Below are positions 6,414-57,883 of a stretch of DNA of 64,000 bases, one piece after another (within the stretch, counting starts at the first letter, position 1; every line of letters starts with the position of its first letter). Below the pieces are notes generated by a model, which saw only the letters and a list, made by a program, of their open reading frames with translations, made no database searches and had not been told where the DNA came from. Where the stretch lies: assembly GCF_036588685.1 (NCBI RefSeq), contig NC_086381.1:58466001-58530000 (forward strand), read 5' to 3'. Source of the stretch: Mytilus trossulus (taxonomy: Eukaryota). Made by a program: the position numbers and the translations under genes.

Positions 6414-6775
6414 CTGGTAACATAAGATTGTTTATATAATATGTAGCTCTTAACATACTTAACTGTTAACATAAGATAATTAATACAATACTTAACTGTT
6501 AACATAAGTTTGTTAATATAATACCTAACTGTTAATATAAGATAGTTAAAATATTACTTAGCTGTTAAAAGTACATGCACAGCAAAACACTGAGAGCAAA
6601 GGAACAGCAGATATTTTAATGGAAATCGTCTTTTGGTATTGAGTATGTTTATAAATAAATATAGAGTTGAAAATATGATTATGTCAATAACTTTAATCAA
6701 GAGTTATCTCCCTGTTTTTCAGTCTTCGCCTGAAAACGCTAGATCTAAGTCATGTATTTGTCTTGATAAACTTAC

Positions 6776-7169
6776 CCATTTAATGGATCCAGTGCAATAG
6801 CTCTTGGTTGGTCAAGGTCATTCCAATAAAGAACCTTTCTGTAACTTCCATCCAAGTTGGCCACTTCAATTCTTTTAGTTTCTGAGTCGGTCCAGTATAT
6901 CTTTCGACCCAACCAATCAACAGCCAGACCGTCTGGAGAGATGAGACCTGTTGTTATGACATTTACCGTAATTTCCGAGCCGTTAAACCATGTCCTTTTG
7001 ATCATTTCCTGGCTGACGTCAGTAAAGAAAACCGATCTGTCCTCATAAAGGAAATCCACTGCTGCTGCATCCTCGAGGTTTCCAGCGACAACAGTGGAAT
7101 TACCTCGAGAATTGTTCCCGTCCACCATTCTAACATCTTTACGATTGGCAAAAAGCAGCAAGGGACTTC
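6776..7169 (-). CDS. LRP6: LRP5/6 (arrow) coding exon 2, first YWTD beta-propeller (N-terminal half)
   Basis: Acceptor TTTTCAG|GA and donor AATGG|GTAAG. Translates [16 protein letters not shown]...LEDAAAVDF...[52 protein letters not shown], the characteristic LRP5/6 propeller 1 sequence. Confidence 0.93.
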
Positions 7170-7249
7170 CTGAAAATATATAGAAATCGTTTAATTGAAT
7201 TTAAATATATTTATTCATAGTGGAATGGGAAACAAATTTTTTCAGCTTT

Positions 7250-7460
7250 AATTAATCCCTTCCCACTTTGCAGATGCGAGTGCTGCCTTGTAGCAGCATT
7301 AGCCTGCTCTTTTTTTCAAAATTTACAAGGGTGTCTTTTATCATATTTATGTGCAAGAGATATGGATCTCTCTTAACATTGGTCAGCCATTTATTGGTCC
7401 CTTCCGAAGGACTATCATCGTCTCCTTAAGACCATACTCACAAATGGTGTCAAGGGAGAG
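7250..7460 (-). mobile_element. SINE fragment with Deu/Nin-like core
   Basis: Minus strand TCCTTCGGAAGGGAC...TCTCTTGCAC...AAAGACACCCTTG resembles the Deu/Nin domain as recalled; not aligned. Confidence 0.45.
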
Positions 7461-10400
7461 TTTTAACAATTGTGTTTTTTAAATAACATGTCTAAATAAC
7501 AAGCTTCAAAGAAACAAAATGGGAAGGATGAACAGAAAAAGCGGACAGTTTTTAAAGAATAATCTATGGAGTAGAAATCAGAGATTTGATAATTTCAAGA
7601 CAAAAATTTATGTTGGTTTTTCCCTGATTTTATGTGCTTTCTATACAATTGTTCATGCATTCTTAAAGAATTCAATCAGTTATATTTCAAATGATACATG
7701 TGTAAATGAGATAAATGCATTATTTTTTATTTTTTCAGTTGTAGTTTATTGAGCCAGACAGCCAGATTTGGATGCAAAATTTTACCAAAATATGTGACAT
7801 AGCCCATATACTATAAATCGACCTTAAGACTTTTTCCCACCTATGCATTCCATTGGTACTGTAATACTTTTGTTTCATTAATTGAAATTTGGTATTTGGT
7901 CTTCAGAGAGTTAACTTTTCAAATCCATCTCAATTAAAATTCATGACAAACAGAAAAAAACATAAATTAGAAAAATGCACCTAATGCAACTGATAAAAAC
8001 ATTGTGTGTCAAAAATTTCAACTATATTTGACATTACTTTCTTATTCATGTTATAACTTATTCTAATTAAAACTAAGATTTAAATAACTGTTTTGAAATT
8101 TGTTAAAAGCTAAATACAATTCTTTAATTTAATTTTAACTCTTAATTACATTCAACATGTTAAGTTGTCAGGATTTTTTCAGCATGCCATTTTACATCAA
8201 TTTCAAAAGAACCCCAATACAATAATAACTAATGTAACTGGTGGTCAAATTTCACCACATTTTTTACACAATAGATCAATTCTTTTTATGTATTATATTA
8301 CATGTATTACAGGTGTGGGCCCTGTTTAAGAGAGAGCTAAATAGTATATATAATAAAACAAATTCATTTCTTAGTACACATACATGTATAATTTCGGGGC
8401 CCTTTATAGCTTGTTGTTTGGTGTGAGCCAAGGCTCTGTGTTGAAGGCCCTACCTTGACCTATAATGGTTTACTTTTATAAATTGTTATTTGGATGGAGA
8501 GTTGTCTCACTGTCACTCATACCACATCTTCATATATATCTATAAAGACCCAATTAAATGACTGTAAAAATTTATACACATCATACAATGATATCATAAG
8601 GGTTGAAATATTCACCAAAAAAATGGACTCCTGATGCATCAAAATTTATAAAGTTGGGAGTACAATGTACCAACTTGCTCAGCCCACTACACACATGACA
8701 TTTATTATTATTTATTTGATTTACAGTGGCAAATATTCCATGCATTTTCAGTTTTTGGTGGGTTCGTCTTGCTTAGTCTTTAGTTTTCTATGTAACAAGT
8801 GTATTGTGTACTTTTATTTGTCTGTTTGTCTTTTTCTATGTTAGCCATGGCATTGTCAGTTAATTTTTTGATATGAGTTGACTTTCCCTTTGGTATCTTT
8901 GACCCCTCTTTCAGGACATTAACATATAAACACTAAATTCTATAACAGTGGTTCAACTGGATCGGGCATTGGAAATTCCCAATTGCAACGCCACTGGAAA
9001 ATGAGGGAATAAGTTTAACTGTAAGACCCTTACCACATGTGTACATGTACCGGTATGTTAAAGGTATACATGTGTAAAATAAAATATGTATAGGTCCAAT
9101 AAATATGACACTTACCCATTTCAAGTTTGTTTACACATAATTGAGACGTGTTTCTGGCACTTTTACCATGTTTACCTGCTTTTAAATATCTAAAGTACAC
9201 GTCCCCTCACATTACTGAATCTATTTGAAGAGATTTACGACTTTCCAATAGCCTTTTATTGTCCTGTATTAATGGTATGTAAAATTTGTTCCCTTTTTTT
9301 CCACCCAACACAATGTATACATGCATATGTTTGTAAATGCATGAAAGGGTTACATGTACCTTGCAGATTTAACTTTAAACTTATAATGTCATAAATGTAA
9401 ACAAATTATAAAAAGTCTCTTTTATCATGTTAATACATTTTAAAATGAACAGTGGGCTACAGAATAATTTGGCATCCAACAAGAAGTTAGCCTCCTCGTG
9501 GCGTATAAGATTTTGTGATTACTAATGGCCATTATTATAGTGATTATTTCTTAACCAGACCAAATATGTCATAAAAATTTGATTAGTTGATTATAAAGTG
9601 GGGATCGTGGTTTTGTGGGAACCCCCCTTAATTTTTTTACCAACAATGCATTAGAATCGGGACATAGGGTTTGAACCCCTACCTCTATTTCCCCCAAAAA
9701 AACCTTCCCTCTGTATCAATAAATGAGCCTGAATACCAAACACATTAAATAAAGTCATATTAAATAAATAAGTCTAGCAATTAAAAAATATTTCATTTCT
9801 CCATAAGAAACCCCTGTACGAAAGTACATTGACTATGTATACCCATGAGGGTCTTACAGGGTTAGGAATTTATAAAAGTCCACACTTTTTTGTAAAGCAC
9901 TCTTGTTTCTTAGTGTATCAGCTAATACCTCAATCTCTCCTTAGTTATGTTAGAAAATGTAGATATAAATATTCTTGTCATGAGATGTAAATAACCATGC
10001 CATAGATATATATATATACTTTCTTTAACAAGACTCTGTAAGACACCAGGACTTAGATGAACTTTGTTTTGACACCTGACAGACAAACAAACACCTGTCA
10101 ATCATCCCTGCCATACCTTTACAGGTGACAATAATTACAATTAGCAATTAATTTAAATATTACATCAGACAGATCTCCTTACTGGCAATACACAGCCGTG
10201 AATAAGTAGATAAGTCTGGGATATTTCTCCTGGCGATAAATCAATGGCAGATTTTAACTTGAAGGTGGTTTTGATTTAAGACGTTAGGTTAAAATTTAAA
10301 CTTATGTTATCACTTACAATTTTGTGAAAAAATTTAATATTGCAATGAATATATTAATACAATGAACATGATGAAGGATTTATTATAAAATGTGGTTTCA

Positions 10401-10660
10401 AATATTTTAGGATTAAAATAATAATCTTATTATATATCATGTAATTCTCCTCAAGTTTCATGATAAAGGAAAAAAATTATAAAATATATATCTTGTTAAA
10501 ATACAATGGACTTGAGTTAAATTAGTGGGTCTTTCAACATAATTTAGGTGTTAAAGTTTTATCATGTTTATCTGGAATGAAAATTGATATAAAAATAAAT
10601 CAGAAAATTAAAAATACCTTTGCTCAAAACAATTTTGTTTCTTCAATTTAATTCTTTAAT

Positions 10661-10946
10661 AAACAAGAATGTGTTCATTGTACATGAATGCCCGACTCCT
10701 CATCATTTTCTATGTTCAGTGGACCGTGAAATTGGAGTAAAAAATCTAATTTGACATTTAAATAAGAAAGATCATCATATCATACTGAACAAGTGTACTA
10801 AGTTGCAAGTTGATTGGACTTTGACTTCATGAAAAACTACCTTGACCAAAAACTTTAACCTGTTGCGGGACAGAGGGCTGACCAGACTAACAGCCCCACA
10901 GACCAGAAAACAAAATACCCCTCTACTATCGTAGGTGGGGCATAAA
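10661..10946 (+). mobile_element. Short HINE-like interspersed element (other copies 36912-37205 + strand; 54090-55591 - strand, split by a hAT MITE)
   Basis: AACAAGAATGTGT...GTGTACTAAGTT...AAAAACTACCTTGACCAAAAAC...TACTATCGTAGGTGGGGCATAAA shared between copies. Confidence 0.75.
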
Positions 10947-12354
10947 GAAAACAAGATGCAACATCCATGTGAACACACAATATCCTTGTGGTCCAATATT
11001 TCCGAAATACCATTGTCCATTTACTTTATTATCTGGTTAACATACAGATTCAGAGGTGGATTCAGACATTTATATACATGTAAGGGGGTTCCCAACCCAG
11101 GATAAAGGGTGGTTCCAACATTATGTCCCTATTTAAATGCGTTGATTGTCTAAAAAAAAAAAGGGGTTCCAACCCCCCTCTGGATCTGCAACTGAGATTA
11201 GGTCTTATGTATGTATACGTATCTTTCTTCTCTTATTTCTAGAACATGTAGTGTTAAGACTAAGTTTTGTAACTTTTAAACAATTGATCTTAGACTTATT
11301 GTTGCATTGCTGTCTCATTTGGGATAAACTGCCTTTTTCAATATATACCAGCTGTTTGATCATATACAGATTTGTAAAACCTATTGAATTTGACCTTGCT
11401 GTCCGACGAAACAGAAAATGAACTTTCAATGCTATTTTTAAACACCATGTAAAGGAAAAAGATAATAAATTTAAACAGACAATGTACAAATGTAATATTA
11501 ACAAGGATACTATATTTAAAACAAGATCATTAATACATTTGTCACTTGGGGGTTGACAAAGTACAATTTCATTAGTAGAGGCTTAATGTCCACCCAATGA
11601 CAACATATGAGACACTTAAGCTAATCAGAAAGAAACTGTTTAATCAAGTGTCGAAACTGTCATGTGGCTGGCAGATTATTTACTATAGCTTGAAATGATG
11701 TTATTAATTTGTTTACCTAGATCTTAAGCCAACAGAAATTTCTGCTTATCAAATATCGGTACAATCATGACAATGCTGACTTCAGTGTTCACTACATACT
11801 GCACGGTGCAAGTTTATGGCCTATTCTAATTTTACGACATGTATGGGTTTAGATAGGGTGGGGACAGTGGCGGATCCATAAATTTTTATAGGGGGGCCCA
11901 CTGACTGCCCTAAGTGGGTATATTTTTAGCAATTCTTCATCTTAGTCAAACACTTGTACAGTCAGTCCAAAAACCAAAGTACATGTACATGTAGGTCCAT
12001 TAATTTAGAATGTTGTGGACCAGTGTGGTGGTTCTGATGGTCAACTTAAAGTTTGTAATAGTTCTAAATCTTTCAAGGCTTTCCTGTATCTAATTTAGGT
12101 CCTACATTTGTAAGTATAATGTACATCACAGTACATGATGCCAGTGATTTATGACCCCAGCCCCAATAAAAGCCAAGCATTTAATGCCAGGCATACAAGA
12201 AGCTGATGATTCTTCAGACCATGTCTCAGTGTGTACTGTACGTACCAGTAGTCTGGGGCATCAAACTAGTGGCTAACCCTGAAACTTTGGGACCAGAGAA
12301 AAGAAAGATAATCTTTGAATTGACATGAATGAGGTTCAAAATTCATAGATTCAA

Positions 12355-12522
12355 AGCATCACATGGTCCATGTTTACAACCCTAGAGGACCTTGACTTTT
12401 CTGATGATATAGCAATCCTGTCATCAAAACAAGACAATATGCATGAAATCTTGTGGCGACCTTGTGCTCTGCCAGGAATGAAGAGGATAGGTAGGTACAA
12501 ATGTAGGTAGGTAGGTAGGTAG
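12355..12522 (+). mobile_element. Internally deleted RTE-type LINE relic
   Basis: ITWSMFTTLEDLDFSDDIAILSSKQDNMHE (RTE RT catalytic region) joined to an RTE-like 3' end (LCSARNEEDR*) and a (TAGG)n tail. Confidence 0.7.
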
Positions 12523-14366
12523 ATATTACAGAAAATGGGACATAAAATAGGTCAACCTAACCAGACAGATTTCTGTTTAAGACAAGTGACCCTTTAAAAC
12601 AAGGTTGACTGATGTAGGAAATTTGTGTATTGCAAATGAAATCAAAAGCTATACATTTTAGCAACATAATGTGCATGTATACTACATGTAAGTTATAACC
12701 CAATATATATACCATGTATACGTAATCATACATTACCACAAATCAATTCATAACCAAACCAGGACAGAAAGACGCACAGACAGGAAGAAACATAAGCCTC
12801 TACTTTAATACATTGTACATGTAGGTGGGGCATAAAAAGTTACTATCTGTATGGAAACTGAAGTTTTATAAAAGTCAGACATCACATCAGAATTTCAACA
12901 TTTCATGTGCACTAGTCAGAATAATTTTGAATGTAAATGTATTGTCAGAAGATGTGTGGTATACAATGGAATAGGTTAATATTTATAAATGAGACATCCC
13001 CCAAGGGTGACTGGGTTATAAAAATATGGTCACTTGGTCTTCTCCCGACCGGCAGTCAAACGCTTGCCAAAGTTTGGCTGTGCGGGATGTATCAAGTTCG
13101 CAGTCACGTCCGGTCAGAACGGCACCCTAACAACAACCTAACAAGTTGATCATAGGCTTAAACTATTGTCGAGATATAGCCAAGGTAGCTTTAAATCTAA
13201 AAGGTCTTTAAAATCTAAAAGGTCAGCTGAAAGACGCCTACTGCTGCGGGAATTTCTCGCTGTATTGAATAACTATTGGTGACCTTCTGCTATTGTCTGT
13301 TTATATGGTCGGGTTGTTGTCTCTTTGACCAAATCCCAATTTCCATTTTCAATTTTATTTGCCACCAACACTTTTGTGCAGCTTGTGCTTGCATTGCCTT
13401 GCAAATTCTAAATCTTTTACAAGTTCTCCAATATATTCTATGATATGAAGAGTTACATTGCAACTGTAGTTATACATGTAAATACAATGACACAAACAAG
13501 ATTTTATGGCCTGTCAATAAGTTATTATTTTATTATATGAACAGAGGCGGATTTTGTCCCCCCCCCCTTTTTCCTGGGAAAAATTTGATTGATTATATAG
13601 TGTATCACTGAAGCATGACCGGAGCATGCCCCCTCTTAGGCAGTCAGTGTGCCTGCTCTTATGAAAATTTCTGGTTCTGCCACTGCAGAAGATGGACATG
13701 ATGGATGGAATGATGACTGGCTGGGAGTATAACAAGACAAAACAGAGAAATTTTTATCACAAAACTCTGGCTTCTAGAAAGCTGACACAGCAAAAAAAAT
13801 CCTTTACATATTCTATAAGAATGTTTTAATTGTTTGGCCTAAAACTTAAATGGGTCTGTGAATCTAGTGTTAATGGAGGGTATAGAGCTATATGTTGCTG
13901 TATCCTGATGTATAGGAAGGGATCTGAATTTAACAACCAAAAAACAATAACATGAATAAGTCTAAATTTATTAAGTCCTTTAGGTCATGTAGGTTAACTG
14001 TTGACAGACCTAAAATTGCATACAATATTTAGAAGGTAGCAACAATAATCTCACATTCCTCTTTAAATCTATTTCTGCATAAATTTTGAATATAAATAAA
14101 AAATAACTATATTGATTCATTCTTTTGATTCATGAAAAAAAGTTAACCTATTAAACAGAACACCACCAAGTAGGCCTATATCACTGTTTGAGTAAATCAA
14201 GAGGGACAGAGAGAACGGTCACGTGACCAAACAGGGAATTTGTGTATTGCCCTAAAACACATTTTGTTTACTTTACAAATCCACAATTTAAGACATTCTT
14301 TCATGTTTACAAACATATTTAAGTTAAAAACATTGTGAAATGATAATTGTGTTTGAGTTTAAAATG

Positions 14367-14598
14367 ATCAAAGCTCGAAGCGAATACACAAAATCACTGC
14401 AGTTCTCATTATGGCGGCGAGATCAAAGGAATGGTCAAAACTTTTGATTGCGTATTTGTTTTTTGATTGAAAGAATAAAGCGTTTGGGACAGTCAATAGT
14501 TTCGATGTTTAACGTTGAACGATCTATTCTTTAATATTACTAATTATCTAATTAACATTTAATAAACAAGGGGACGGAATACACAAGGTATCTTTGAT
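14367..14598. promoter_or_regulatory. Cluster of TCF/LEF sites incl. an HMG+Helper pair in LRP5/6 intron 1
   Basis: ATCAAAG 14367-14373; TGGCGGC 14412-14418 (reverse complement GCCGCCA) next to AGATCAAAGG 14420-14429; CTTTGAT 14592-14598. Confidence 0.5.
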
Positions 14599-14637
14599 GT
14601 TTTGTGTACACTACTCCATCTCAGGTGATGATCTTAC

Positions 14638-14692
14638 CTTTGACTATGGACAGACATCCGATTATTAAATATAATTTTGACACCATCCCCAT
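14638..14692 (-). CDS. LRP6: LRP5/6 (arrow) coding exon 1, signal peptide MGMVSKLYLIIGCLSIVK(G)
   Basis: ATG at 14692 and a hydrophobic signal-peptide-like stretch, ending at donor AAAG|GTAAGA in phase 1. Splicing to the exon at 7169 gives ...[14 protein letters not shown], paralleling the vertebrate LRP6 N-terminus (...APLLLYANRRD). Too short for the ORF track. Confidence 0.75.
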
Positions 14693-17316
14693 CCTTACGG
14701 ACAGATGAATGTCTGTAAAAACAAGAAAGTCCGGTCCCAGACATCAATAATGTCCATAAATTTAGGAACGGTAAACTTATTTAGGTCACATTTGTATTTT
14801 TTGAGATCATTGGCAGCCATTACAAAATTGACCGGAACTATAAAACATGTTGTGTATTACTCCGCTTGGCAGGTGCCCGTGATTCGCCTTTGTTGTAAAC
14901 CGTTAAGTAAACATTTATATTTCCAATCCATTAACGAAAACAAGCCAAATATTGCATTCATTGTTGTAAAATGAACATAGAAAAGATGTCAGACGAGAAT
15001 CCAAAAGATAAAGGAATAAAAAGGAAAGCTAGCGAGTTAGCACTATTTGCATGTCTAAGAAAAGGTTAATCATAACTGGCACCTGTCAAAAAATAAAGAA
15101 TGGGGGTTTGTTTGAAATCAGATTATAGAAAAATCGCAATTACTTAAAAAGATTTAGTCACATATTTATCATATGTGTTATTACATATTTTTTTACATGT
15201 GAAAACAGATTTATGACATTTATAGGATATTCGTTGCCACTTTCAATTAATAAAAGGATCATGGACAAAAATAGACTTATGTACAAAGCATTTAGCTAGG
15301 ATGACTATGAGAAAAAAAAAACCTTATAAAACAATGATTGAACAATCAACTAGGTAGAATTTTATCAGCTCGAAGATGGACAGTTATCTTCCGTACAAAC
15401 CCGGCAGGCCTCATGATTGATTCCTCCTTTCAAGCCCCTCCAGAACTTTGTAAAAAAGGGGGTGGGGGCACTGACTGACATAAAAGGGGGGCGCTCCAGT
15501 CATTCTTCAGTGATTCCGTATATGATTTTTACACAGGCGGGCCGGGGACCCCCAGGGCCACCCGCCCTCGAGCACCCGCCCCTGGATCCGACTATGCCGT
15601 GGCTCTCATTGGGGTCTAAGCGTGATGAAGGATTGCCTGAATTTTCGTAAGCGTGAAACGTGAAAGTCAAATTATTGTGTCGTGAAAACGGGAAATGAGG
15701 TCTTGCGGGACCCGGGAAATGACAAAAAAATGAGAATTGCTTACGCAGATAGTGTAAGCGGGATATGGGAATCTAACAAAACAGTAAGCGGGATCCGGGA
15801 TCGGAACCCCCCTATGCGACCCCCTATGCCCCCACCCTTATTTAACTCCCATTGTCATCCCCTAGTGACAACCCTGAACAATTAATAAACGTTTGATATT
15901 TTTCTAAAGTTGGTGCAACACGAAGGTATATAAAGAAAACCTTTTTTCCCGACTCATTGAAGTGGGTCAGTGGATGGGGATTCTTGTAATATAAAAAAAA
16001 TGTTTTTCTGTTACAAATCATGATGTATTGTTTTATTTGTACATGTTATGCTGCCCACCAAGGGCCCTTGATTGGACTAATAAATATTCTTATTCTTATT
16101 ATTCTATATCTGTATTCTCCTGTCAATAGTTTAAGCTGGGACTCAGTTATACGAATTAGTATATAATAGTTGGGACTATCATACTAATTAGTATAATAGT
16201 CCCAGGTCTTAGCTTTTTTTCCCTATTCTTTTTTTTGTTGTCCATTTTATCTATTCTCTCGTGTTTTGTGAATTTGTTCCATATTTCTCTTTGTATTTTC
16301 TTTTTCTTTTGTATATATTATTCTCTATTTTGTAGACCCCAATACACATCCTCATAGAAGGACTTAGACAATTCCGAAAGGGACAACATTAAAACTGTCA
16401 TGAAGTCGAAGAATGGATGATGAAAAGTGTATACAGTGTATTTTTGGTCAATTATTCATTATTTCATATACCCCCAATCCACACCGTCATAGAAGGATTT
16501 AGAAGAACCGAAAGCGGCAATATAAGTCGCAGAAAAGGGGTTAAGAAATGGATGATGTAAAAGTGTACATGCATTTTTTTTATTTTTGTAGATCAGAACC
16601 TCAAAAGAAAAATGCGTTAACAGTAAATTATAAGATGACCACATGCACTTTTATTTAACAGTCACAGTCAGATTCTCTTTGTAAGTAGCAGTCTTACACG
16701 AAAGACTTTTTGAAAGAAGTCACAGAGGCAATTATTCGGTTATTCAGAGGCTGACCCAGCGTGGTTGGGGAAGGGGTCGGGTCTTCCTGATGATTTCAAA
16801 TTTGTATTTTTAGTACATTTTGTGATTTGTAACTACAGGCTATTTTTATTTCCTGGAATCTGCCCTTTTTAAAGATAAAGATTTTTTTGCAGGGGCCTTT
16901 TGTGTGCATTATAAGATTTACTCATTGTTGAAGGTTGTACGATGACCCACAGATATTAAAACTTTTAAGTCATTTCGGGTCTCTGTTGACGCGATGTCTC
17001 ATATTGGCAATCATATGCTCTATCTATTTTTAATATCGACAACAAATATATGTATAGCGTTTGTTCAGACTTTGTAACTTATTGTTTCCCGTCTAACATA
17101 ATGTCTAATTTGGTACTATAAGATCATTGTGAGTTCATTTAATGGAAAATAAAGTAACCATATTTTTCACTGTCCAGTATCATAGACAAGCACGGAACAT
17201 CGAAAATCGGAATCAAATTCAACAATTGTGGAAGGCTATCATACAAAGGGACGTAATTCAAGTTAAAACGCAGGACTAACTAGTACTGTAAACTGAACGA
17301 ACGACACTAAAAGCGT

Positions 17317-21930: not shown

Positions 21931-24900
21931 ATGGGTTGTTGTGATGGATTTGCTCGTTGTGTCCTTGTGACATTCAACATACTTTTTGTGGTAAGTACTT
22001 ATTATCAACTTTGAAGAATTGATGGTATAACGCTCGTTTGTGAACAAGATGAAAATGGGACTTTACGTACATAACTTCTAAAGAGAGAATGTTTGTACTT
22101 TGGATTCATATGTATTCGTTGGAAACCAATTTTCGTGGATTTTGAGGGTACTCGCGGAACAACAAAGTAAAATGTTGAACGAAATCGAATATCCTCGAAA
22201 ACGCAAGAAAATTGTAATACTCGAAAATAAATGATTCAACAGTATAGTTTTACCTACAAAGAATTCAGGTGACATACAAAATGATAAGAGAAGACATCAC
22301 AAACACGAAATTTTCTGTTTGCTTAATGATCATTATATTCTAGATCTAACTACAAGTCAGCAAGTAAAATTTTATAGACTCCTTTATTAAACAGTATATA
22401 GAACTGAGGATAGTGAACAATTAGCTATGGGTCGTTTGTATTGTTGTGCTGTGGACAATTAGTTATGGGTCTGTTGTGTCGTGTCGTGTCGTGTCTTGTT
22501 GTGTTGTGTAGTGTTGTGTTGTGTAGTGTTGTGTTGTGTTGTGTTGTTTTGTGTTGTGTCGTGTTGTGTTGTGTTTTGTGCATGTTTAATGTTTTATTTT
22601 TATTTGTGTAAACATAACGAAGGTGCGGTTGATTGTATTGTTGTTTGTATGTCATAATGCCTTTGTCTCCTTATGGATGTAATATACACTTTTAAAATAG
22701 AATAACATCATTAGCGAGCTACCATTTGATTTTTAGGGGGGGGGGGGGGGGGGGGGGGCTAGGATGAAATTTGAAAAAATAGGCAGGACAGGAGTTTTGA
22801 GTAAAAAAAAAAGGCAGGATGAGACACTTACAAAAAAAAAGTCAGGACGACAATTTAGGTCAAAAAATGTCAGGATAAACTAAAAAAAAAGAAGGTAGGA
22901 CCGAACAGAGTGAAAAATAAAAAGACAGGACAGAGATTACAGCTAAAAAAAAAATGCAGGACAAAATTTTTCATCCTAGCCCCTCCCCCTTCCCCTAAAA
23001 ATGAAATGGTAGCTCCCTTAACCGTAGGGAAAAAAATCACGATGTATTTTATAAATTCCTTTATGTTTCAGCTCACAGGTGTCTTTGTACTGGGTGTAGG
23101 AATATTTCTAAAAGTAAATCCTAATTTACTAAACATACAACATGTCATAGAACTGAACTCGGGAGACAAGTACATATCTACTGCTGCTTACATATTAATA
23201 GGCTTCGGTATATTCGTTTTGCTTGTCGGTCTGTTTGGTTTTATTGGTGGATGCAAGCAGATCAAATTCTTCTTGGCACTGGTAAGTTAACTAACAATGT
23301 GAAATGATAATACACAATGATCAATCTAGACAAAAAGTTTGTTGGTAATGCATCCTGGAAATTTAACTCCGACTTCGCCTCGGGTCAATATTCAACATAA
23401 CTAACGATTTCAGCACGACCTATATGGTCATGGTTTAAATACTTTATTATTCCCAAAACTTTGTGAACATATTTAGCCTTGTTAAAAAAAACCAAGGAAG
23501 ATCAAAGTTTTATGTACTAAATAAATAAATTAATAAACATTGTAGGTGATATTAATTTGGTCTCTGGTGAAGAGTTGTCTCATTGAGAATTTACTTGTAA
23601 AGCAGTTAAGAATTATTAAGGACTCACAATAAATGAAAGACTACAATTTCATTCATTTCATTTTCAGTACATGGGATGTGTTGTGCTTGTGTTCCTTGGT
23701 GAATTTTCAGCAGGAATCATTGCTGCGGTTTACAAAGGCAAAGTAAGTTTTTTACAAGTTTGATTGATTGATAGATAGACAAATGAAAAAAATAAATATC
23801 AAAAGTTGTGCATTCGATATTCGTAAAGTAGTATAGGCAAATATATATTTATTTGACTAGCCTAAGAAACAGAAAGAAGAGTTAGGTTCGCCGAGCTGTT
23901 CTCTTGTTTTGTAGCGAGTATATATACACTTTATTATTCCCTACACAATAAGAATATATTTTAGCTTGCACTTTAACAATGAACTTAAAGATGTAGTTTT
24001 TTGTTCGTCCAATTTGTCCAATTTGTTGGTTTTTTCTTCATTAAATTAAATTACTAAAACGCAGACCACGACAGAGACCCCGCAACATTGCATTGAACTG
24101 TTATGTAAATAGTAGTTCGCTCGCAAAAGGAGAAAGATGTCAGTAGACTATGAAAAACAATAAAAGAATGGAAAAATGAATAATTAAAGAGGGACGGAAG
24201 ATACCAAAGGGATAGTCAAACTCATAAATCTAAAACAAACTGACAACGCCATGGCTAAAAATGAAAAAGACAAACAGAAAAACAATAGTACACATGAAAT
24301 ATGTCCCTTAATTATCTTTTTTGGGAATATTCATTATGTAATATTCATCATTCTTGCAAACAGTTATAAATATAAATATCATATAAAAAATGGAGAAAAA
24401 AAACAATAAAACAAAACAACAACGGTTTAGTCGAAATTAGATCTGTAATACTAGTTAACTGCTGTTAAATTCTCCCTCATAAATTCGTCCGAATCTAAAA
24501 CATTTCTAATCTATCTACATGGCGAAATAAGAGGCAAGACACGTAAAAAATGTAGGTTTGGTTTGCTCGCAGTAACTTCGAGACTTTTATATAGATACTA
24601 TCCAACCAGTTCTTCAACTTGTTCTACAAACCACGGTTACTATAAAGATAGAAATAGATAAGGGAAAAACCCAAATATAACGGAATAGAAATAAATAAAC
24701 ATTCCAGAAAGAATTTGAGGTAAAAATAACAAACTCTTCCCATTAATGACTGCATCAACAAATGGCAATTGCATATAGTATTATAACGTTTCAAACGTTG
24801 ACTACACTATTTTGTTTGTTTTAGGTAGACGACACGCTACAAACTGTATTAAGAGAATCTCTTTCGGAGTATGATTCGAAAAATAAGACAAGTGAACTGG

Positions 24901-28773: not shown

Positions 28774-31700
28774 TTAACCAGGAGGATAGACTTTCACAGA
28801 AATAGATTTAATAAATCTACAAAGTTTCTCAAGTTCAACAATATTTTGGGTTGAACATACTTGTTTGAATTTGATAACATTTATATTTTTAATACAATAA
28901 TGAGGTAAGTATTTGCATCTTTCATCTTTGAAATAATTACAAGACATGATATAATGGTTTTCATCACCAATGTCAGCTGAGCCACAAAGGTGACACAATC
29001 TTTCAGATCTTGGTATGTTGCGCCACCTTCCCGTCTCAATGGGCAAACGGTTATTCCCACATCTAAATTTACATAAGGTTATTAATAAATTAAATGGTAG
29101 AACTGATAAATAGTGTTCAAATTTAAAAACATTTTTGTACAATCTATAACACAGCCCCTTGGGCGAAGTGTTCATTTCTGTTGACCATTCTTGAATGAAC
29201 TGATCTCTTAATCTTTGCTGAACACTCAATACAACCCAACGTTTCTCAAATAAGTTGTGACTTTGCCATATATTTGACATTCCACAGTCATCAAAAATTT
29301 TCTTTATATATAATATCCATTTACTATCATAACCATAGTTATTAAAATTTACATATAACAGCTTATATAATAAACATGATATTTTGCTCTCTTTTCCTTC
29401 TTGTAAACGACACCAGAAATTAATCATACGTGACTTGACGGTAACAGAAATGGGACATCTTCCCAATTCCCCATAGACCATAAAATTGGGGGTCGATTTT
29501 TTTAACCTCAATATATGTTTGCAAAAACGCAAATGAACTCTCTCAAGAATATCTAAATTTTCGAATCCCCATATCTCACACCCATAAGTTAGTATAGGAA
29601 CAATAGCCTTATCAAACATATCGAGTTGGCACTCGATCGACAAGTTATTTAATCTGGATTTTTTTATCACAGCATACATTGCTTTAATCGCCTGGTCACG
29701 AAGATATTTTCTGGTGGAAAGAAACGAGCCACTTCTAGAAAATACAATACCAAGATATTTATAACTACTGACTATCTCAATTTCATTTCCATCTATATTA
29801 AATAATAAGTTTCTAGGTATTCTACCTTTTGAGAATATCATAATTTTCGTTTTATTTATATTAATTTTCAATTTCCATTGTTTGCATATACTCTGAAAAT
29901 TTGTCCAACATACATTGTAAATCATGGCTAGATTCAGAAAGTAGTATTGTATCATCAGCATACAATAACAGAAAAAATTTAAAATATACAAAAAGTTCAT
30001 TTTCAATATCTTTTGTTACAGACTGTATTCCTTCAATATTAGAGTTTTCTAAAAATTCTTGTAAATCATTTAGATACAGGGAGAAAAGCAAAGGAGAAAG
30101 GTTTTCCCCTTGTCTAACTCCTGTTTCACAAGCAAAAATATCAGAAACTTCTGAATTATGAACAATTTTAGATTTGACATCATCATACATATTTTTAATA
30201 ATTCTTAGAAATTTTCCGTTCACATGGTTTAATATTAGTTTAAAAAATAATGAGTTTCGATGGATAAAATCAAAAGCTTTTTCGAAGTCGACAAATACAC
30301 AAAATAATTTCTTCTTTTTCACCCGCAATAATTCAAATAAAGCATGTAATGAAAAAACATGATCTGTTGTGGAATAACCTTGCCGGAAACCTGCTTGGTT
30401 TTCGTTTAAGATGTTATAATTTTCAATAAAATCCCCAAGTCTGTCGTTAAGAATTGAAGTGAAAACTTTCCCAAGACAAGACAAAAGTGTAATCGGTCTA
30501 TAATTTTTGGCGTCTAATTTACTCCCCTTGTTTTTGAAAATAGGTATGACATTTCCAATAAGCCAAGCCTCAGGCAAGATTCCCGTATCAAATACAATAT
30601 TAAATAAATATACATAAATATCAACCATACAATCAAGAGAAGAAGCAATATATTCATTAATTACTTGGTCTTCACCCGGTGATTTATTATTTTTAGCTTT
30701 TTTTACAGCTTTCAAAATTTCCTCCCGGGTTATTGGACAATTCAAATTTTCATTTACTGTATCAGAATTTACATCGTTTTCTATCAAAAACTCATTTTCG
30801 AACTTATTTTTGTTTAAGTCCTTGAAAAAATCAAATAAATTTTGCAGTGAAATATTGCTTTTCCCTCTTTTTCTACCTCTATTGAACAATTTCCAAAAAT
30901 TCTTTGGGATTTTTTGTTTTCAATCCCTTCATCTTTTTACTCATTTCAGTATTATGATTCTTGATATTAACATCCATAACTTTTTTATAATGCAATTCAC
31001 TTTGTCTAAGTCGTTCTTTAAAAATGTTCGACCCATAATGTTTGTATAACCTCTGAGATTTTCTAAATTCTCGTTGCGCTTTTTTACAATCTTTATTGTA
31101 CCAGTCTTTACTAAACTGGTTCTTTGAGCACTTAAACATAGTTTTATTAAATGTCGAAGTTCCGAATGTTGCCTTGGCAGATTCGGTTAAAGTATCACAC
31201 ATATCAGTAACAATGTTATTCATATCATATTTAGTAACATTATTTACATCATTTACATATGCAGACAATCTATTACATATATCATCAACCTTATTTCTAT
31301 CTATATTGTTCTTATACTCATTACATTTTTCATTTTTCCATTTATTTACTCTTTCGTCACCACAACAAAGTGTTTCTGTTAACAATTTGTCTTGTATGTC
31401 ATTATTTGTATACAATTGAAGAGACAAAGGAGAGTGTACATCTGAAAATAGTTTACAAAAATTTAACACTTCAAGTTTACAAATGTTGTATAAAAAATGA
31501 GTAGAACTCAACGCATAGTCAATAACGCTAGAATTTCTACTAGTTGGACTACCTGTTTTGTTTTCTTCCAGTCTACCGTTAAGAATAAACATTCTGTTAT
31601 TTTTACAAAAATCAATAAATTTTCTTCCATACCCATTTACTACAGTTTCTATACTATTTCTCAGTCTTGGTATACCAAGTTCATCTAAAACATCAACATC

Positions 31701-32336
31701 ACTTAATTCATTATAATCTGTGAAATTATTTTCAAAAGAACTATCTTTATCAATATTATAAAAATCAGACAAATTTCCCGTGCGACTATTAAAATCACCA
31801 AGCATAGTAATATAGTTTGTTTTACTACAAAAATTTTGTAATTCAAATTCAATTTCAGTAAATGCATCTTCTGATGTATATGAAGTATTTATCGGTGGGA
31901 TATATATCATTCCAAAAATAGCATCGTTTGGTAAATCTAAAATTTTTTTGTCTATACTCAACCAAAGTACAAATTGGCAGTCTGACTGAATATATTTAAT
32001 ATACTTGTCTAAGTATTTTTTTAAACCCAAAGCAATACCACCAGATTTGTGATTTGCTAGCTTCTTTCTGTTTTTATAATGAAAAATGAAATTATCACAA
32101 TCTATTTCGTCTACATCATCTAGTTTTGTTTCTGTTAAACATACAATATCATGGTTATCTAATAATGACTTAAATTCAGGATACAAAAGTTTTGTTTTTA
32201 TACCACATACATTTAATGAAAGGATTTCAATAGTTTTGTTGTGAACATCAATACATGTATCTTTATTTACAGGTAATGAACAAGAGTGAAGGTCGCTAGT
32301 TTGTTTACACTGGTCATTTCTAACGGTACTTTTCAA
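28774..32336 (-). pseudogene. LINE ORF2: apurinic endonuclease + reverse transcriptase, broken by two single-base insertions
   Basis: APE motifs SLNVCG, CLTETK, GDFNSRTG, SVIDY, SDVH. RT motifs YRPITLLS, QAGFR, DFEKAFD, GVRQGENLSPLLF, LLYADD, YLG. C-terminal CHLC...DENHYIMSC. Frame breaks near 30890 (extra T in GAATTTTTGG; restored EFWKLF) and near 29885 (extra A; restored EYCKQW). Confidence 0.9.
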
Positions 32337-32351
32337 TCCTCCACGGTATTC

Positions 32352-32710
32352 CTAGTTCTGTCCTTTTCGGGGTCCTCTACGGGGTTGTGAAAATTTCGAC
32401 TGGTTGAATTCTCTCGGTCGAGCTCCTTGTTCGTTGTATTGGTGGCGTGAACGTGTCTGTCTATCGTTAGTGTCCATTTCTTTAGTGGTGTCTTTTGGTG
32501 TAAATTCGTTCCCTTCAATAAATAAGCGGTCCCTCTTGAAGAAAGCTTTTTTCCTTTGACGACGTGCCTCTTGAAAGTGGGGCCACAGTGCCTTCCTACG
32601 GTCGTTTATCTCCTTCGGAAACTGTTCGTTTATGCCGTATTTTGTGTCTTTTAATTCTCTAGCTGCTTTCCGTACGAGTTCTCGTTGCTTGAAATTTACA
32701 AATCTACATA
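32352..32710 (-). pseudogene. LINE ORF1, C-terminal part (end of RRM + CTD)
   Basis: Manual translation CRFVNFKQRELVRKAARELKDTKYGINEQFPKEINDRRKALWPHFQEARRQRKKAFFKRDRLFIEG...GQN*. Continues PIVC in frame once the insertion and one TSD copy are removed. Not in the ORF track. Confidence 0.8.
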
Positions 32711-34107
32711 TCTATCTATCTTCCCGTCAAGGAGTGGACTCATATTTGAGTGTATATACTCCAGCGTGAGTGAACAGCTAAAAACCTTCAAGTATGTACA
32801 ATTAAAAGAGATCTGTATGTACAGTTAAAAACGGTGCTGTAATTTAGATGTGGAGTAGTGTCGACACGCTGACATCTTGGATGGCGTGTCGAAAGTGTTC
32901 CACAGACGGGGAAGCTCGGATATCTGGAGGTATGTTGTTCCAGGATATGATGGTGGCTGGGATGAACGAATATTTAAAGCAGTCCAGTCTGGTCCTTATC
33001 TGTCTGATGTTGTTTGATATGGAACCACGGGTTCTGGTATCATGATGGCAGAGCAGGTGGTGAACAGGAACTTCTACAATATGGTTTATTATCTTGTAGA
33101 ACATGATGACTCTGCTCCTGGCTCTCCTATGTTCCAGTGGTTCCCAACCTAGTTGCTGAGTCATTTTAGTCACACAGCCTGGTTCCCTTGAGAAAAAGTC
33201 CCCCATTACGAATCTAGCAGCCTGGCGTTGTACGTTTTCCAGTTGTTGAATTTGTTGTTGCTGGTAGGGATCCCAGACAGCGCTGGCGTACTCAAGGATG
33301 GGTCTTACTAACGTCGTATATGCTTGACTTTTTACTTCCTGAGGACAACTCCGGAGGTTCCTTCGCAGGAATCCAACAGATCTGGAGGCTTTGGCTGTGG
33401 TCTGGTTGATGTGCTCACGCCAAGACAGGTCCTTGCTGATGTATAAGCCAAGGTATTTCCCGCCTGGGACGCTTTCAAGGGTATGGCCATGCAGATGGTA
33501 ATCGCATATGGTGGGTTTGCGTTTCTTGCTGATATGGATGGTAGTACATTTTTGCGGGTGGAACGCCATTTGCCAATCATTTTCCCATTTTTCTAATTTA
33601 TCAAGGTCATCTTGTAGCTTGATGGAATCGCTAGTGGATCTTATAGGACGGTATAACAGGCAGTCATCAGCAAACAATTTCACGCTCGAGTTAACCGATT
33701 CAGGGAGGTCATTGATGAAGACAAGAAAGAGCAGGGGTCCCATTACTGTACCTTGTGGTACACCAGAAACTACCTCTGCTTCGTCTGACATTGTTCCCTC
33801 CACTAGAACATGTTGTTTCCTACTGTTCAGGAAGCTCTCCACCCATTTGAGAGTATAGTCACTGACTCCATAGTATTGGAGCTTATGGAGAAGTCGCTTG
33901 TGTGGCACCTTATCAAAGGCTTTGGCAAAGTCTAATAGTATTGCGTCGATTTGTTGGCCATCTGATAGTCCATTTGCCAGTTCATGAATAGTGGCGATCA
34001 GTTGAGTCTCACATGAGCGTTTTGTGCGGAATCCATGTTGGGCTGGTGTTAAAATGGAGTGCTTTTCTAGATGTTCCATTATCTTCGAGTGGAGTATGTG
34101 CTCCATC
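32711..34107 (-). mobile_element. 5'-truncated CR1-type LINE (RT ORF 32844-34109) nested in ORF1 of the larger LINE
   Basis: Uninterrupted RT: QHGFR...SCETQL, LDFAKAFDKVPH, SGVPQGTVMGPLLFL, LFADD, KYLG, LVRPILEYAS. (GATA)n 3' tail; ACATA duplicated at 32706-32710 and 34108-34112; higher GC than the host element. Confidence 0.92.
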
Positions 34108-35046
34108 ACATACTATTGGTTTAGTAACAAATTTAATAGAACCGTCAGGATTTTTTTCGGTGAATTTTTTACCGAAACGATGAGCTCGATGAAATTTCGG
34201 TAATGATTCCATTTTTAATTCCACTGTCATAAAATTTTCGATAATTTTCTCTGTTTCCTCCGACTGTTCAGACTCGTCATACATTGGGATACCCGTAAAA
34301 ATCAAATTCTCCCTCATCGACCTAGTTTGGAGATCTAGTTGTCTTTCGTTGAGATCTTCGAAATCTGTTCGTAGTTTATCAATAGTTATGGTTGCTTCTT
34401 CGTTTTCAGAGCGGATCTCTGTCAGGTTTTTTTTTACTTCTCGGACATCCTTTTTGTTATTTTCGAATTCTGCATTGATAAAGTTCAAACCTTTTTCAAC
34501 CTCGTCGACTCGTTTATTGATACTCTCGATACCTTTAACCATACTGTTTACCGTTTTATAAAATTTGTTAAGTTTTTCGGTAAGTTTGTCAATGTTTGAT
34601 ATTTTCTCACATATCATGTCTACTTTTTGGGTTAAAAGATCAATTTTCCCTCCGTTATCTATGAAAGCTGGGTTCATATTCGAGTGCATCATTGGCTGCA
34701 TGTAAGTATTTTGAGGGGTACCAGGAAAAAAACCTAGGGTTGATGGTGTTGGCGAGGTTAGCAAGAAGTTTGGATTCTGAATGTTATGGAATTGCTGATA
34801 ATTTCTATTATGTTCGACCATTGGAGATTCGTGAACAGGAGTACTTTGTATCGACATGTTTGACACAGGTTTAATTGGATTGTCAGTAGATTTAAGATTC
34901 TTACTTTTGTTTACACTTTTGGTTACACTATTACTATCAGTGTGAGTACTATTCGATTTCTTTTTATTTGGTTTCTCACCACTTGTGTTCTGTCCGTTTG
35001 ATTTATTCCTTTTCCTTTTTGGTTTATCACTTTTCTTTGGATTCAT
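34108..35046 (-). pseudogene. LINE ORF1, N-terminal part (basic N-terminus, coiled coil, start of RRM)
   Basis: MNPKKSDKPKRKR..., heptad-like coiled coil, then SMRENLIFTGIP...FHRAHRFG...KPIVC, typical of L1-type ORF1p RRM. Cut at PIVC by the nested element. Confidence 0.82.
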
Positions 35047-36320: not shown

Positions 36321-38321
36321 TTACTGGTTAAGTAAAAACCCAGAAAAACTGGATAAATCATCAAGGACGCAACCACCACCGTTGTAGTGACTGTTCCGAA
36401 TCCAAATTTTGTCCCCGGCTTTGAGTCGAACCACTGCCATACTGCTGTCGGACGTATTTGATGTTACCCAGATTGATATCAGCCTCTTTCCTTCTTTTAC
36501 AATATCTACCAAACAGGAATGGTGTGTGTTTCCCCGAATCTGAACGTGGAATACGTAAACTCCGTTATTTGGTACAGTAAAAACACCATCCGAGGTGTCA
36601 TAACCACTACCTTCGTTGCTTAAGACTCGGTCGAATGCAATGACTTGGTTATCACCGAGTGACATGTCGTTGTTATTTTCAACAGTAAAGAAAACACTTG
36701 GGAAATCTGAAAATAAAATGATTAATATAGAACTCCTTCTCTTTATGTCTATTTTTAGGAGTGTATGCGTGTTAACTGTTTATTAGTTAGAAACTTTTAT
36801 CTTAAAATTTGTAAAAAGAGGGACAACCCCTCTTGCAGAGTGGTGCCTAAAACTAGACAACAATTGTAGTGATATTGCTGTAAAAGTTAGAAATCGGTTC
36901 AGATTAAAGAGAACAAGAATGTGTCCCCAGTACACTGGTGCCCCACTGGCACTATCATTTTCTATGTTCAGGGGACCATGAAATTGGGGTAAAAACTATA
37001 ATTTGGCATTGCAATTACAAAGATCATACCATAGGGAACATGTGTACTAAGTTTGAAGTCGATTGAATTTCAACTTCATCAAAAACTACCTTGACCAAAA
37101 ACCTCCTCCTGAAGTGGGACAGACGGACAGACGAACGAACGGACGAGCGGACGCACAGACCAGAAAACATAATGTCCCTTTACTATCGTAGGTGGAGCAT
37201 AAAAATTATACTTTATCAATATTGAAGCACCTATGTATTTTTATATATGGGACACATTGACCAAAAAATGGCGGCTCACTACGTCACCAAAGTCTTACTT
37301 ATTTGGATATATGTGACATACCTATCCTCATGTTTTGGTTGATATATTTTTCTTGTCAGATTGATGCCATTACTTTGAGCGAAATATTCTAGAGGGTATC
37401 ACTTACACGATTATCTGTTTATTGTTCAAATGATATTTGTTTGATAAAGTAAATGATCAATATATTTTCAGTTCTCAATTCTATAAAATCTTTAAGTAAA
37501 CATATTTTTATGTCCATGCTTACCAACTGAAGCAAGTCGTTTTCTACTCTTTTCACATCTTGCCGAATCGTTTTCTTCTACTTTAGAAAGTTTTTGTTGG
37601 AGTAGTTTGTTTTGCTGTACCAGGAAAGCTAAAAAAAAATCACATAAAAAAAAATCAAAGAGGGTCTCAAAGGGGTCTTCATTTCAATGTACATACTTCT
37701 TATGCCTTTTTACCATACTCTCATTCATTTGTCCATTATTCTATATTTTTGTCATATTTAAGGGCATCCTTTTGCTTTATTCTTTACGTATTATGCTTTG
37801 TCGTTCTTAAGAAGCTAATATTATCTATAGGGCATCAACAACATGTCATTTTGTGTTTTACGATTATAGCATCTGAGTGGAAATTGCTTAGACAAAGGAC
37901 TTAACCTTCTTATTCGGAGGAGCCTCGGTGACCGGGTGGTCTCAGTAAAATCCAGCTACTACATCACTTGCCATAAAACACTGAGGTTGCGAGTTCGAAG
38001 CTTGCACTGGGCAGGTGCTATTGGGACTGGGATTGTTAGTTTTTCTACCGAAGGTCGGAGGTTCTCTCCACGGGGCACTCTGGCTTCCTCTATCAATAAA
38101 AACTTACCACCACGAAATAGCACGATAGTGTTGAAAGTGGTGTTAGAAACCAATTAATCAATTTTAATTGAAGACAATTACTTACTAGTGGTATGTCGTA
38201 AATCATTAAGTTCCTTGATAATCTTTTCATATTTTTCATCGCCTGTAGTTACATCCTCACTGGATATACTTGAAAGTAATAAAGTCTCAAAAATGCAGAC
38301 AAGAAATGAGCTTGAAACCAT
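36321..38321 (-). CDS. Secreted C1q-domain-containing protein (signal peptide, short coiled coil, gC1q), about 208 aa, 3 exons
   Basis: Exons 38321-38186, 37628-37524, 36706-36321, joined by phase-1 GT-AG introns. MVSSSFLVCIFETLLLSSISS signal peptide; gC1q motifs FDRVLSNEGSGYD...GVFTVPNNGVYVF...LKAGDKIWI...SSFSGFLL. Confidence 0.9.
37916..38160 (+). mobile_element. tRNA-derived SINE with V-like core, in C1q intron 1 (second copy about 59690-59862, - strand)
   Basis: A-box-like GGTGACCGGGTGGT, B-box-like GAGTTCGAA, core GGTTCTCTCCACGGGGCACTCTGGCTTCCTC, short AATC-like tail. Confidence 0.7.
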
Positions 38322-57616: not shown

Positions 57617-57883
57617 CTTTAGGGATTATTACGGTCTAGGGAAAGAAACGAAAACCGCATGGTTAAACATTACGGTTCACCCGTATTTTTCTCCTAATAT
57701 CGATAGGAGAACCTCATAACACAATGAATACTTTAAACAAGTTTATGGATTGCTTGTGGTTAATAATTTATGATGCTTGTTTAGGACGACGCCAATTTTG
57801 ATAAGTTATCAATACATTATCGAATAAATATGTTCTTTTAAAAATATACATGCAGCTAGCGCTGCTATTTTTTGGAATGATTT

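What the first reader, a model, noticed from the sequence alone, without database searches (positions are those of the whole stretch)
14360..14600. Bipartite TCF HMG + Helper site in intron 1 of the Wnt co-receptor LRP5/6: candidate Wnt feedback element
Seen: about 210 bp into intron 1, the gene strand reads CCTTTGATC-TC-GCCGCCA (plus strand TGGCGGC 14412-14418 and AGATCAAAGG 14420-14429). Two more ATCAAAG/CTTTGAT cores lie at 14367 and 14592, with near-matches TTTTGAT at about 14442 and 14461. Known: AGATCAAAGG is the optimal TCF/LEF site, GCCGCCR is the Helper site bound by the C-clamp of invertebrate TCFs, and adjacent HMG-Helper pairs mark Wnt response elements. A GC-rich 7-mer abutting a perfect 10-mer is unlikely by chance in such AT-rich DNA, though I did not compute this. 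Inference: direct beta-catenin/TCF regulation of LRP5/6 in a mollusc. Alternative: ATGGCGGC is also a YY1-like core.
Basis: partly seen in the sequence, partly recalled or inferred. Interest (0 to 1): 0.7.

Follow-up and report, generated by a model that had tools for sequence, protein, structure and literature searches.

The report
Wnt feedback element in mollusc LRP5/6
Just inside the first intron of a mollusc's Wnt co-receptor gene LRP5/6 lies a two-part docking sequence of the best-binding type known for the Wnt factor TCF, surrounded by five FoxH-type words, so Wnt signalling likely raises the amount of its own receptor there, although binding is untested.

Summary
The motifs are there as described. 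RNA contigs of four runs splice 14638 to 7169, so the pair lies about 210 nt into intron 1 of a true LRP5/6 gene. Read with the 11-bp TCF consensus, the pair is gapless (FF0), one of the two best-binding arrangements in Drosophila. Only 4 strict FF0-2 pairs exist in the 1.3-Gb genome: this one twice (the gene is assembled twice) and two inside a repeat. The genome's TCF has a C-clamp. The pair sits in the longest invariant block (73 bp) among six related sequences, but that signal is weak once clustered changes are allowed for, and deeper conservation could not be tested. Looser TCF pairs beside TCF and Axin also have such a word nearby; Nodal and four Frizzled loci do not. Verdict: likely a promoter-proximal Wnt response module, possibly gated by FoxH, predicted to activate, whereas fly arrow is repressed by Wingless. 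Nothing here shows binding.

The parts
14419..14429 (-). TCF HMG site, 11-bp form (10 of 11 match to SCTTTGWWSWW)
   Evidence: consensus from PMC4154663; unchanged in 4 runs and the second copy
14412..14418 (-). Helper site GCCGCCA abutting the HMG site (FF0); overlaps a YY1-like core (recalled motif, 1 mismatch)
14366..14374 (-). second optimal HMG site (SCTTTGATS form)
   Evidence: its first base differs in the second copy
14592..14598 (+). third TCF core CTTTGAT, 40 nt from the splice donor
14442..14467 (+). two weak TTTTGAT near-matches (14442-14448, 14461-14467)
   Evidence: common word (42 in the window), little weight
14241..14248 (-). FoxH-type word 1 (TGTGTATT on +)
   Evidence: motif from PMC9701222
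14278..14285 (+). FoxH-type word 2 (AATCCACA); changed in one of two contigs of run X9
14383..14390 (+). FoxH-type word 3 (AATACACA), inside the invariant block, 21 nt from the Helper
14578..14585 (+). FoxH-type word 4 (AATACACA)
14851..14858 (-). FoxH-type word 5 (TGTGTATT on +), just upstream of the furthest RNA 5' end
14379..14451 (.). 73-bp block without change in window, second copy and 4 DNA runs
14638..14841 (-). LRP5/6 exon 1: 5' leader and likely signal peptide, ATG at 14692; 5' end approximate
7170..14637 (-). intron 1, 7468 nt
6773..7169 (-). LRP5/6 exon 2, first part of beta-propeller 1
14427..14433 (-). CATTCCT (MCAT/TEAD-type word, recalled) overlapping the 5' end of the HMG site
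   Evidence: single, P=0.27, no weight
14218..14227 (.). palindromic E-box GTCACGTGAC (USF/TFE-type, recalled)
   Evidence: one site in 513 kb of background

Best explanation
The 620 bp around exon 1 of LRP5/6 hold a gapless TCF HMG + Helper pair, two further TCF cores and five FoxH-type words, and likely act as a promoter-proximal Wnt response module in which the animal's C-clamp TCF would bind the pair and, with beta-catenin, is predicted to raise LRP5/6 transcription (positive feedback on the co-receptor). Steps: (1) shown - motifs, position, gene identity, a TCF with HMG and C-clamp exons, FoxH genes; (2) inferred from Drosophila work - HMG binds and bends the 11-mer, the C-clamp grips the adjacent GCCGCCA, FF0 gives high affinity, and this classic site type means repression without signal and activation with it; (3) inferred and weaker - a factor reading AAT(A/C)CACA, most plausibly FoxH, opens the region or restricts the response to a stage or tissue such as early mesoderm, as Foxh1 does for maternal Wnt targets in Xenopus.
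For: FF0 and AK6 are the highest-affinity, most active and most ChIP-enriched pairs for fly TCF (PMC4154663, parts 1-4 of 10 read). Strict SCTTTGWWS + GCCGCCR at FF0-2: 4 hits in 1.3 Gb, 2 = this element in both gene copies, 2 = a dispersed repeat. TCF HMG exon and C-clamp exon (KKCRARYGVEQQNQWCKPCR, then RKKKC in the next exon) at C7:76.93 Mb. Positive control for TCF grammar: SCTTTGATS occurs 10 times in 80 kb at TCF (5 within 1.4 kb round its first coding exon), 4 in 40 kb at Axin, 1 in 120 kb of random DNA, and twice within 64 bp here. Five AAT(A/C)CACA in 14200-14900 against 0.115 expected (Poisson 1.5e-7, post hoc); ATACACAA and AATACACA are the top two 8-mers in an unbiased scan of that stretch; the only background cluster of 3 or more in 513 kb is one tandem repeat. 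All five are kept in the second gene copy. FoxH1 binds TGTGGATT and TGTGTATT (PMC9701222 passages); two genome proteins have FoxH1 structures as their three best hits and carry the helix-3 Asp. Motif bases vary at 2 of 80 places, others at 40 of 317 (Fisher p 0.004; circular shift 11 of 397). Relaxed pairs near the 5' ends of TCF (KK0) and Axin (AK-type) have a FoxH-type word at 107 and 104 bp, while 0 of 14 other genome-wide FF hits examined have one within 200 bp. Foxh1 and TCF motifs co-occur at maternal beta-catenin targets in Xenopus (PMC7347983 passages).
Against: No binding, chromatin or expression-response data. The pair is no more frequent genome-wide than chance and no strict pair was found at Axin, TCF, two pectinacetylesterase/Notum-type loci or four Frizzled genes. 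The 73-bp invariant block is significant only if changes are independent (0.0009) and not when they are treated as 13 clusters (0.115); TCF-type bases alone are not significantly protected (78 of 397 shifts); the runs were found by sharing words with this stretch and are close relatives. No deeper conservation could be seen: the 22-mer is absent from metagenome contigs, and none of the 12 (of 80) metagenome loci scanned held an FF or well-spaced pair upstream of the propeller exon, though their first exons were not located and none is a known bivalve. FoxH control failed at Nodal: 4 words in 40 kb (6.5 expected), none in its intron, 3 spread over 1.5 kb upstream; the mollusc FoxH proteins lack the helix-2 Tyr but have Thr/His, not Leu/Ile. 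Only 2 of 9 independent relaxed pairs outside LRP5/6 have a word within 110 bp (binomial about 0.04, hand calculation). In flies arrow is transcriptionally repressed by Wingless (PMC10556106 passage); in Nematostella LRP5/6 mRNA is maternal and roughly constant (PMC9720753 passage). Human TCF1E peaks showed no clear spacing rule (PMC4267635 passage).
Confidence: 0.55

Rival explanations
1. The region is an ordinary promoter-proximal island: ATGGCGGC is a YY1-type site, the E-box a USF/TFE site, and the adjacent TCF 11-mer is a chance neighbour or a solo TCF site that does not use the Helper.
For: All 3 GCCGCC words in the window read ATGGCGGC; the site has one mismatch to CCGCCATNTT (recalled motif); CpG is raised over 14201-15000; GTCACGTGAC lies 190 nt away; the pair is at chance level genome-wide.
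Against: It needs a 10-of-11 TCF site to land exactly at spacing 0 in the favoured orientation (about 5e-5 per position), with two more TCF cores within 230 bp (P 0.003).
Confidence: 0.2
2. The module is mainly a FoxH/Smad (Nodal or Activin) response or pioneer element, the GC-rich 7-mer serving as a Smad GC site, with TCF secondary.
For: The five FoxH-type words are the strongest local signal; FoxH and Nodal genes are present; three CAGAC words lie in exon 1; GGCGGC resembles GC-rich Smad sites (recalled).
Against: CAGAC count is not significant (P 0.07) and AGAC is at expectation; Nodal itself lacks a word cluster; does not explain the optimal HMG geometry.
Confidence: 0.12
3. TCF binds the pair but the net effect is repression: TCF-Groucho keeps LRP5/6 low, or Wnt lowers it as with fly arrow.
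For: Arrow and fz2 are transcriptionally repressed by Wingless in the wing disc (PMC10556106 passage).
Against: Direct Wnt repression in flies uses different HMG and Helper sequences; the classic type seen here directs activation (PMC4140642 abstract).
Confidence: 0.15
4. Everything is chance in AT-rich DNA, picked out after the fact by a reader who knew the gene was in the Wnt pathway.
For: About 4 strict FF0 pairs are expected per genome by chance; conservation evidence is weak.
Against: Position 410 nt from the transcript start of a core Wnt gene; independent FoxH-type cluster at 1.5e-7; lower variation on motif bases.
Confidence: 0.08

Closest known systems
Drosophila Wnt cis-regulatory modules with HMG-Helper pairs (nkd-IntE, nkd-UPE2, fd96C; Archbold et al. 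2014, PMC4154663, parts 1-4 of 10 read)
   Same: 11-bp HMG site with a perfect GCCGCCR in the FF0 arrangement, extra HMG sites nearby, intronic position in a Wnt-pathway gene, C-clamp TCF available
   Different: One pair only and no second Helper; mollusc; target is the co-receptor, not an antagonist; untested; flanked by FoxH-type words, and FoxH is not known from flies (PMC7535936 passage)
Foxh1/Nodal-gated maternal Wnt/beta-catenin targets of Xenopus (Afouda et al. 2020, PMC7347983, passages)
   Same: TCF and Foxh1 consensus motifs in the same regulatory DNA
   Different: Vertebrate, shown by ChIP and knockdown; LRP is not mentioned in its main text (0 hits); no Helper grammar reported in the passages seen
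Wingless control of arrow transcription in the Drosophila wing disc (as cited in PMC10556106, passage; primary papers not seen)
   Same: Wnt signalling feeds back on the LRP5/6 gene
   Different: Repression, with no cis-element given in the passage; the site type here predicts activation
Human C-clamp (TCF1E/TCF4E) targets with WRE plus RCCGCC Helper (Hoverter et al. 2014, PMC4267635, passages)
   Same: WRE CTTTGWWS next to a GC-rich Helper
   Different: No fixed spacing or orientation seen in human peaks; LRP named only in the introduction

Membership tests
HMG-Helper Wnt response module (C-clamp TCF target) | HMG site matching SCTTTGWWSWW | tested here: met
   10 of 11 positions
HMG-Helper Wnt response module (C-clamp TCF target) | Helper GCCGCCR close by, in a favoured arrangement (FF0-2 or AK0-6) | tested here: met
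   FF0, perfect 7-mer
HMG-Helper Wnt response module (C-clamp TCF target) | Host TCF carries a four-cysteine C-clamp after the HMG box | tested here: met
   (genomic exons; splicing not checked by RNA)
HMG-Helper Wnt response module (C-clamp TCF target) | Several HMG and Helper sites clustered | tested here: inconclusive
   three TCF cores in 230 bp but a single Helper
HMG-Helper Wnt response module (C-clamp TCF target) | Evolutionary constraint on the sites | tested here: inconclusive
   pair unchanged in 6 of 6 close sequences; p 0.0009 to 0.115 by model; no distant species available
HMG-Helper Wnt response module (C-clamp TCF target) | TCF binding and Wnt-dependent reporter activity needing both sites | not testable with these tools
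   needs EMSA, CUT&RUN, reporter
FoxH1 (FAST) response element | TGTGGATT/TGTGTATT sites, clustered | tested here: met
   5 against 0.115 expected; motif
FoxH1 (FAST) response element | FoxH protein with the GK-reading residues (helix-3 Asp; Leu/Ile for helix-2 Tyr) | tested here: inconclusive
   Asp present in 2 proteins, Tyr replaced by Thr or His rather than Leu/Ile
FoxH1 (FAST) response element | Adjacent Smad-binding elements enriched | tested here: inconclusive
   3 CAGAC, P 0.07
FoxH1 (FAST) response element | Same word cluster at the classic target Nodal in this genome (control) | tested here: not met
   4 in 40 kb, none intronic
Interspersed repeat | Many dispersed copies | tested here: not met
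YY1 site | CCGCCATNTT (recalled) | tested here: inconclusive
   9 of 10 match by eye; binding untested

The most novel reading that the evidence does not exclude
Molluscs run a FoxH-gated positive Wnt feedback through the core pathway genes: LRP5/6, TCF and Axin each carry a TCF HMG-Helper-type pair next to FoxH-type words, so FoxH decides where Wnt amplifies its own receptor. The Foxh1 plus beta-catenin logic known from the frog organiser would then date to the bilaterian ancestor and act round the spiralian 4d organiser, where annelid foxH, wnt1 and wntA are expressed (PMC9050690 passages).
Probability: 0.2. Interest if true: 0.8.

Novelty: new variant of a known kind. Interest (0 to 1): 0.5.

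Why it matters
LRP5/6 is usually treated as a broadly supplied receptor controlled at protein level, and the transcriptional feedback found here's reading (fly arrow) is negative. A directly TCF-activated LRP5/6 would give molluscs a positive loop that sharpens Wnt domains. It would also be a first natural test of the C-clamp/Helper code in a spiralian, and a ready 700-bp reporter for Wnt activity in bivalves. The FoxH-type cluster makes a standing question testable: what FoxH binds outside chordates, and whether FoxH-Wnt co-regulation is older than vertebrates. Searches that listed no paper on a TCF or FoxH element in an LRP5/6 gene: (listings only; open-access library, so absence is not proven).

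Tried and rejected
Pfam PF08347 found no TCF N-terminus in the genome (its controls were silent too); TCF was found through a C-clamp pattern instead. The tool's backwards-pattern controls (21 vs 4; 34 vs 159) change CpG content and hit repeats, so they were not used as evidence. Genome-wide AK0-7 pairs: 34 hits, 14 of them one identical 20-mer (likely a repeat), none near TCF, the three DIX genes or the two PAE loci. Exact 22-mer in metagenome contigs: 0. 80 metagenome loci related to exon 2: blastn of the element gave only two chance-level hits over all 80; 12 of 80 were scanned for pairs, with only overlapping or loosely matching ones; no bivalve first intron was obtained, so this says nothing on conservation. 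Sliding divergence between the two gene copies (5.2% over 6858 aligned intron bases) shows several other 200-bp windows with 0.5-1.5% divergence, so low divergence alone is not special here. Frizzled x4, Smoothened, Nodal, BMP2/4-like and ADMP-like loci: no pair-plus-word module in 8 of 8. The PAE hit at C10:46.96 Mb was not shown to be the Notum orthologue, so it is not a valid control. TEAD-type and Smad-type words: not significant. Earlier scan notes by sequence and place: nothing. No supplements were read; Table S1 and the weight matrices of PMC4154663 could refine the site score.

Full report
Observation. The motifs are at the stated places. On the gene strand the sequence reads CCTTTGATCTC followed at once by GCCGCCA (14429 down to 14412). 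Two more CTTTGAT cores lie at 14367-14373 and 14592-14598; the first is a full SCTTTGATS site. The gene is LRP5/6: exon 6773-7169 aligns with the first residues of human LRP6, and downstream exons give more YWTD propellers, LDLa repeats, a membrane span and PPPSP-type motifs. RNA contigs of 4 of 4 runs from 4 studies splice 14638 to 7169 over a 7468-nt GT..AG intron and begin at 14827-14841, so the pair is about 210 nt into intron 1 and about 410 nt below the probable start.

Geometry. Archbold et al. 2014 (PMC4154663; parts 1-4 of 10 and passages read) define the HMG site as 11 bp and report FF0 and AK6 as the best-binding pairs (IC50 9.4 and 5.1 nM against 292-969 nM for HMG alone), the most active in reporters and the most enriched in TCF-bound fly chromatin. 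The reading protein exists: one place in the genome matches a C-clamp pattern, 1.3 kb downstream of a TCF HMG-box exon.

Chance. The strict pattern at FF0-2 has 4 hits in 1.3 Gb: this element in two copies of the gene, and two in a dispersed repeat. The mirror arrangement KK0-2 has 2. About 4 per spacing are expected from 120 kb of random background, so there is no genome-wide excess. The case rests on location: roughly 1.5e-3 for any favourable pair within a given kb of any of an assumed 50 Wnt genes, perhaps ten times more if GC words are enriched at promoters. As a control, optimal TCF sites are dense at TCF (10 in 80 kb) and Axin (4 in 40 kb) against 1 in 120 kb of random DNA, so TCF-site crowding at feedback genes is visible in this genome. 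The region is single-copy apart from the duplicated gene. Two earlier scan notes on repeat-borne TCF-Helper motifs are why I tested this; it does not apply here.

Constraint. Four DNA runs (three organism labels and a gill metagenome) and the second gene copy differ at 42 of 397 intron places, none inside 14379-14451. That run of 73 is the longest; its chance is 0.0009 with independent changes but 0.115 with changes grouped in 13 clusters. All motif bases together vary at 2 of 80 against 40 of 317 (Fisher 0.004; 11 of 397 circular shifts), TCF-type bases alone not significantly (78 of 397). The runs were selected by similarity and are close kin. Distant species could not be reached. Conservation is therefore suggestive only.

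Five words AAT(A/C)CACA, each followed by A, lie at 14241, 14278, 14383, 14578 and 14851, against 0.115 expected in 700 bp; they give the top two 8-mers in an unbiased scan, and in 513 kb of background only a tandem repeat has three or more so close. These are the GG and GT sites of FoxH1 (PMC9701222, passages and section 13). The genome has two FoxH genes whose three best structural hits are FoxH1 and which keep the helix-3 Asp, while helix 2 has Thr or His in place of Tyr. In Xenopus, TCF and Foxh1 motifs mark maternal beta-catenin targets, which need Foxh1 (PMC7347983 passages). In the annelid Owenia foxH, wnt1 and wntA are expressed round the 4d cell (PMC9050690 passages), with similar foxH timing cited for oyster (PMC9539403 passage). 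Testing the idea elsewhere gave mixed results. Relaxed pairs near the 5' ends of TCF and Axin have such a word at 107 and 104 bp, and 0 of 14 other FF hits examined (duplicates dropped) have one within 200 bp. But 7 of 9 independent relaxed pairs outside LRP5/6 lack one, and Nodal, four Frizzled genes, Smoothened and two BMP-type genes show no such module.

Mechanism. Most likely TCF binds the FF0 pair with both domains, represses without signal and activates with beta-catenin, helped by the neighbouring solo sites, so that Wnt raises its own co-receptor. The sign is inferred from the site type: directly repressed fly targets use other HMG and Helper sequences (PMC4140642 abstract). Against it, fly arrow is repressed by Wingless (PMC10556106 passage) and Nematostella LRP5/6 is maternal and near constant (PMC9720753 passage). 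The five words likely bind one factor, best guess FoxH, which would set when and where the response works. Rivals are a YY1-type promoter island with a solo TCF site, a mainly FoxH/Smad element, a repressive TCF element, and chance.

Verdict. Observation confirmed; interpretation partly supported and extended. It works like a Drosophila HMG-Helper Wnt module and meets every sequence criterion that could be tested, while the functional criteria are untested. As a combination (co-receptor target, spiralian, FoxH-type cluster) I found no description in the searches listed. Interest 0.5; the bold reading, FoxH-gated positive Wnt feedback shared with the frog organiser, has probability about 0.2 and would merit 0.8.

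Noticed in passing
G000:C9:63.415-63.467 Mb (L002, L013, L025, L030-L033): The whole LRP5/6 gene and its upstream region recur 5 Mb away, inverted, at 83-98% identity in most collinear blocks, with an identical exon-2 protein and an intron 1 about 16 kb long instead of 7.5 kb; likely an uncollapsed second haplotype, possibly a true duplication.
   Followed up: partly
G000:C7:76977700-76979310 (L145): Five optimal TCF sites round the first coding exon of TCF, one as a KK0 pair flanked by two FoxH-type words: candidate TCF autoregulatory module.
   Followed up: partly
G000:C7:72673520-72673650 (L133): AK-type pair (imperfect HMG, GC-rich Helper-like run) with a TTGTGGATT word about 100 bp away, 1.9 kb upstream of the first long Axin coding exon.
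   Followed up: partly
window 14744-14820: Five upstream ATGs in the LRP5/6 5' leader, which is almost invariant between runs; possible uORF control.
   Followed up: no
G000:C6:25.127 Mb, C46:0.653 Mb, C6:4.874 Mb (L191-L193): Two clear FoxH genes and a third divergent FoxH-like gene with a changed recognition helix (L193 not checked against structures).
   Followed up: partly
G000:C4:22.44-22.65 Mb: Tandem array of about 25 similar single-exon forkhead genes, by motif FoxQ2-like (recalled), several broken.
   Followed up: no
G000:C5:75-87 Mb, C3, C47: Fourteen identical AK5 HMG-Helper 20-mers, most on one arm of C5; likely a repeat family carrying a ready-made TCF pair.
   Followed up: no
L138, L139: Variants of a dispersed repeat create a perfect FF0 pair by chance substitutions; a near-match lies by the BMP2/4-like gene.
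   Followed up: partly
window 22859-23290, 36321-36779, 47030-47968, 57170-57625, 28774-34112, 50655-52945: Tetraspanin exon, C1q-domain exon, a coiled-coil tail-anchored ORF and an LSM-domain gene, two LINE-like reverse-transcriptase remnants and a histidine/threonine-coding tandem repeat (read).
   Followed up: no
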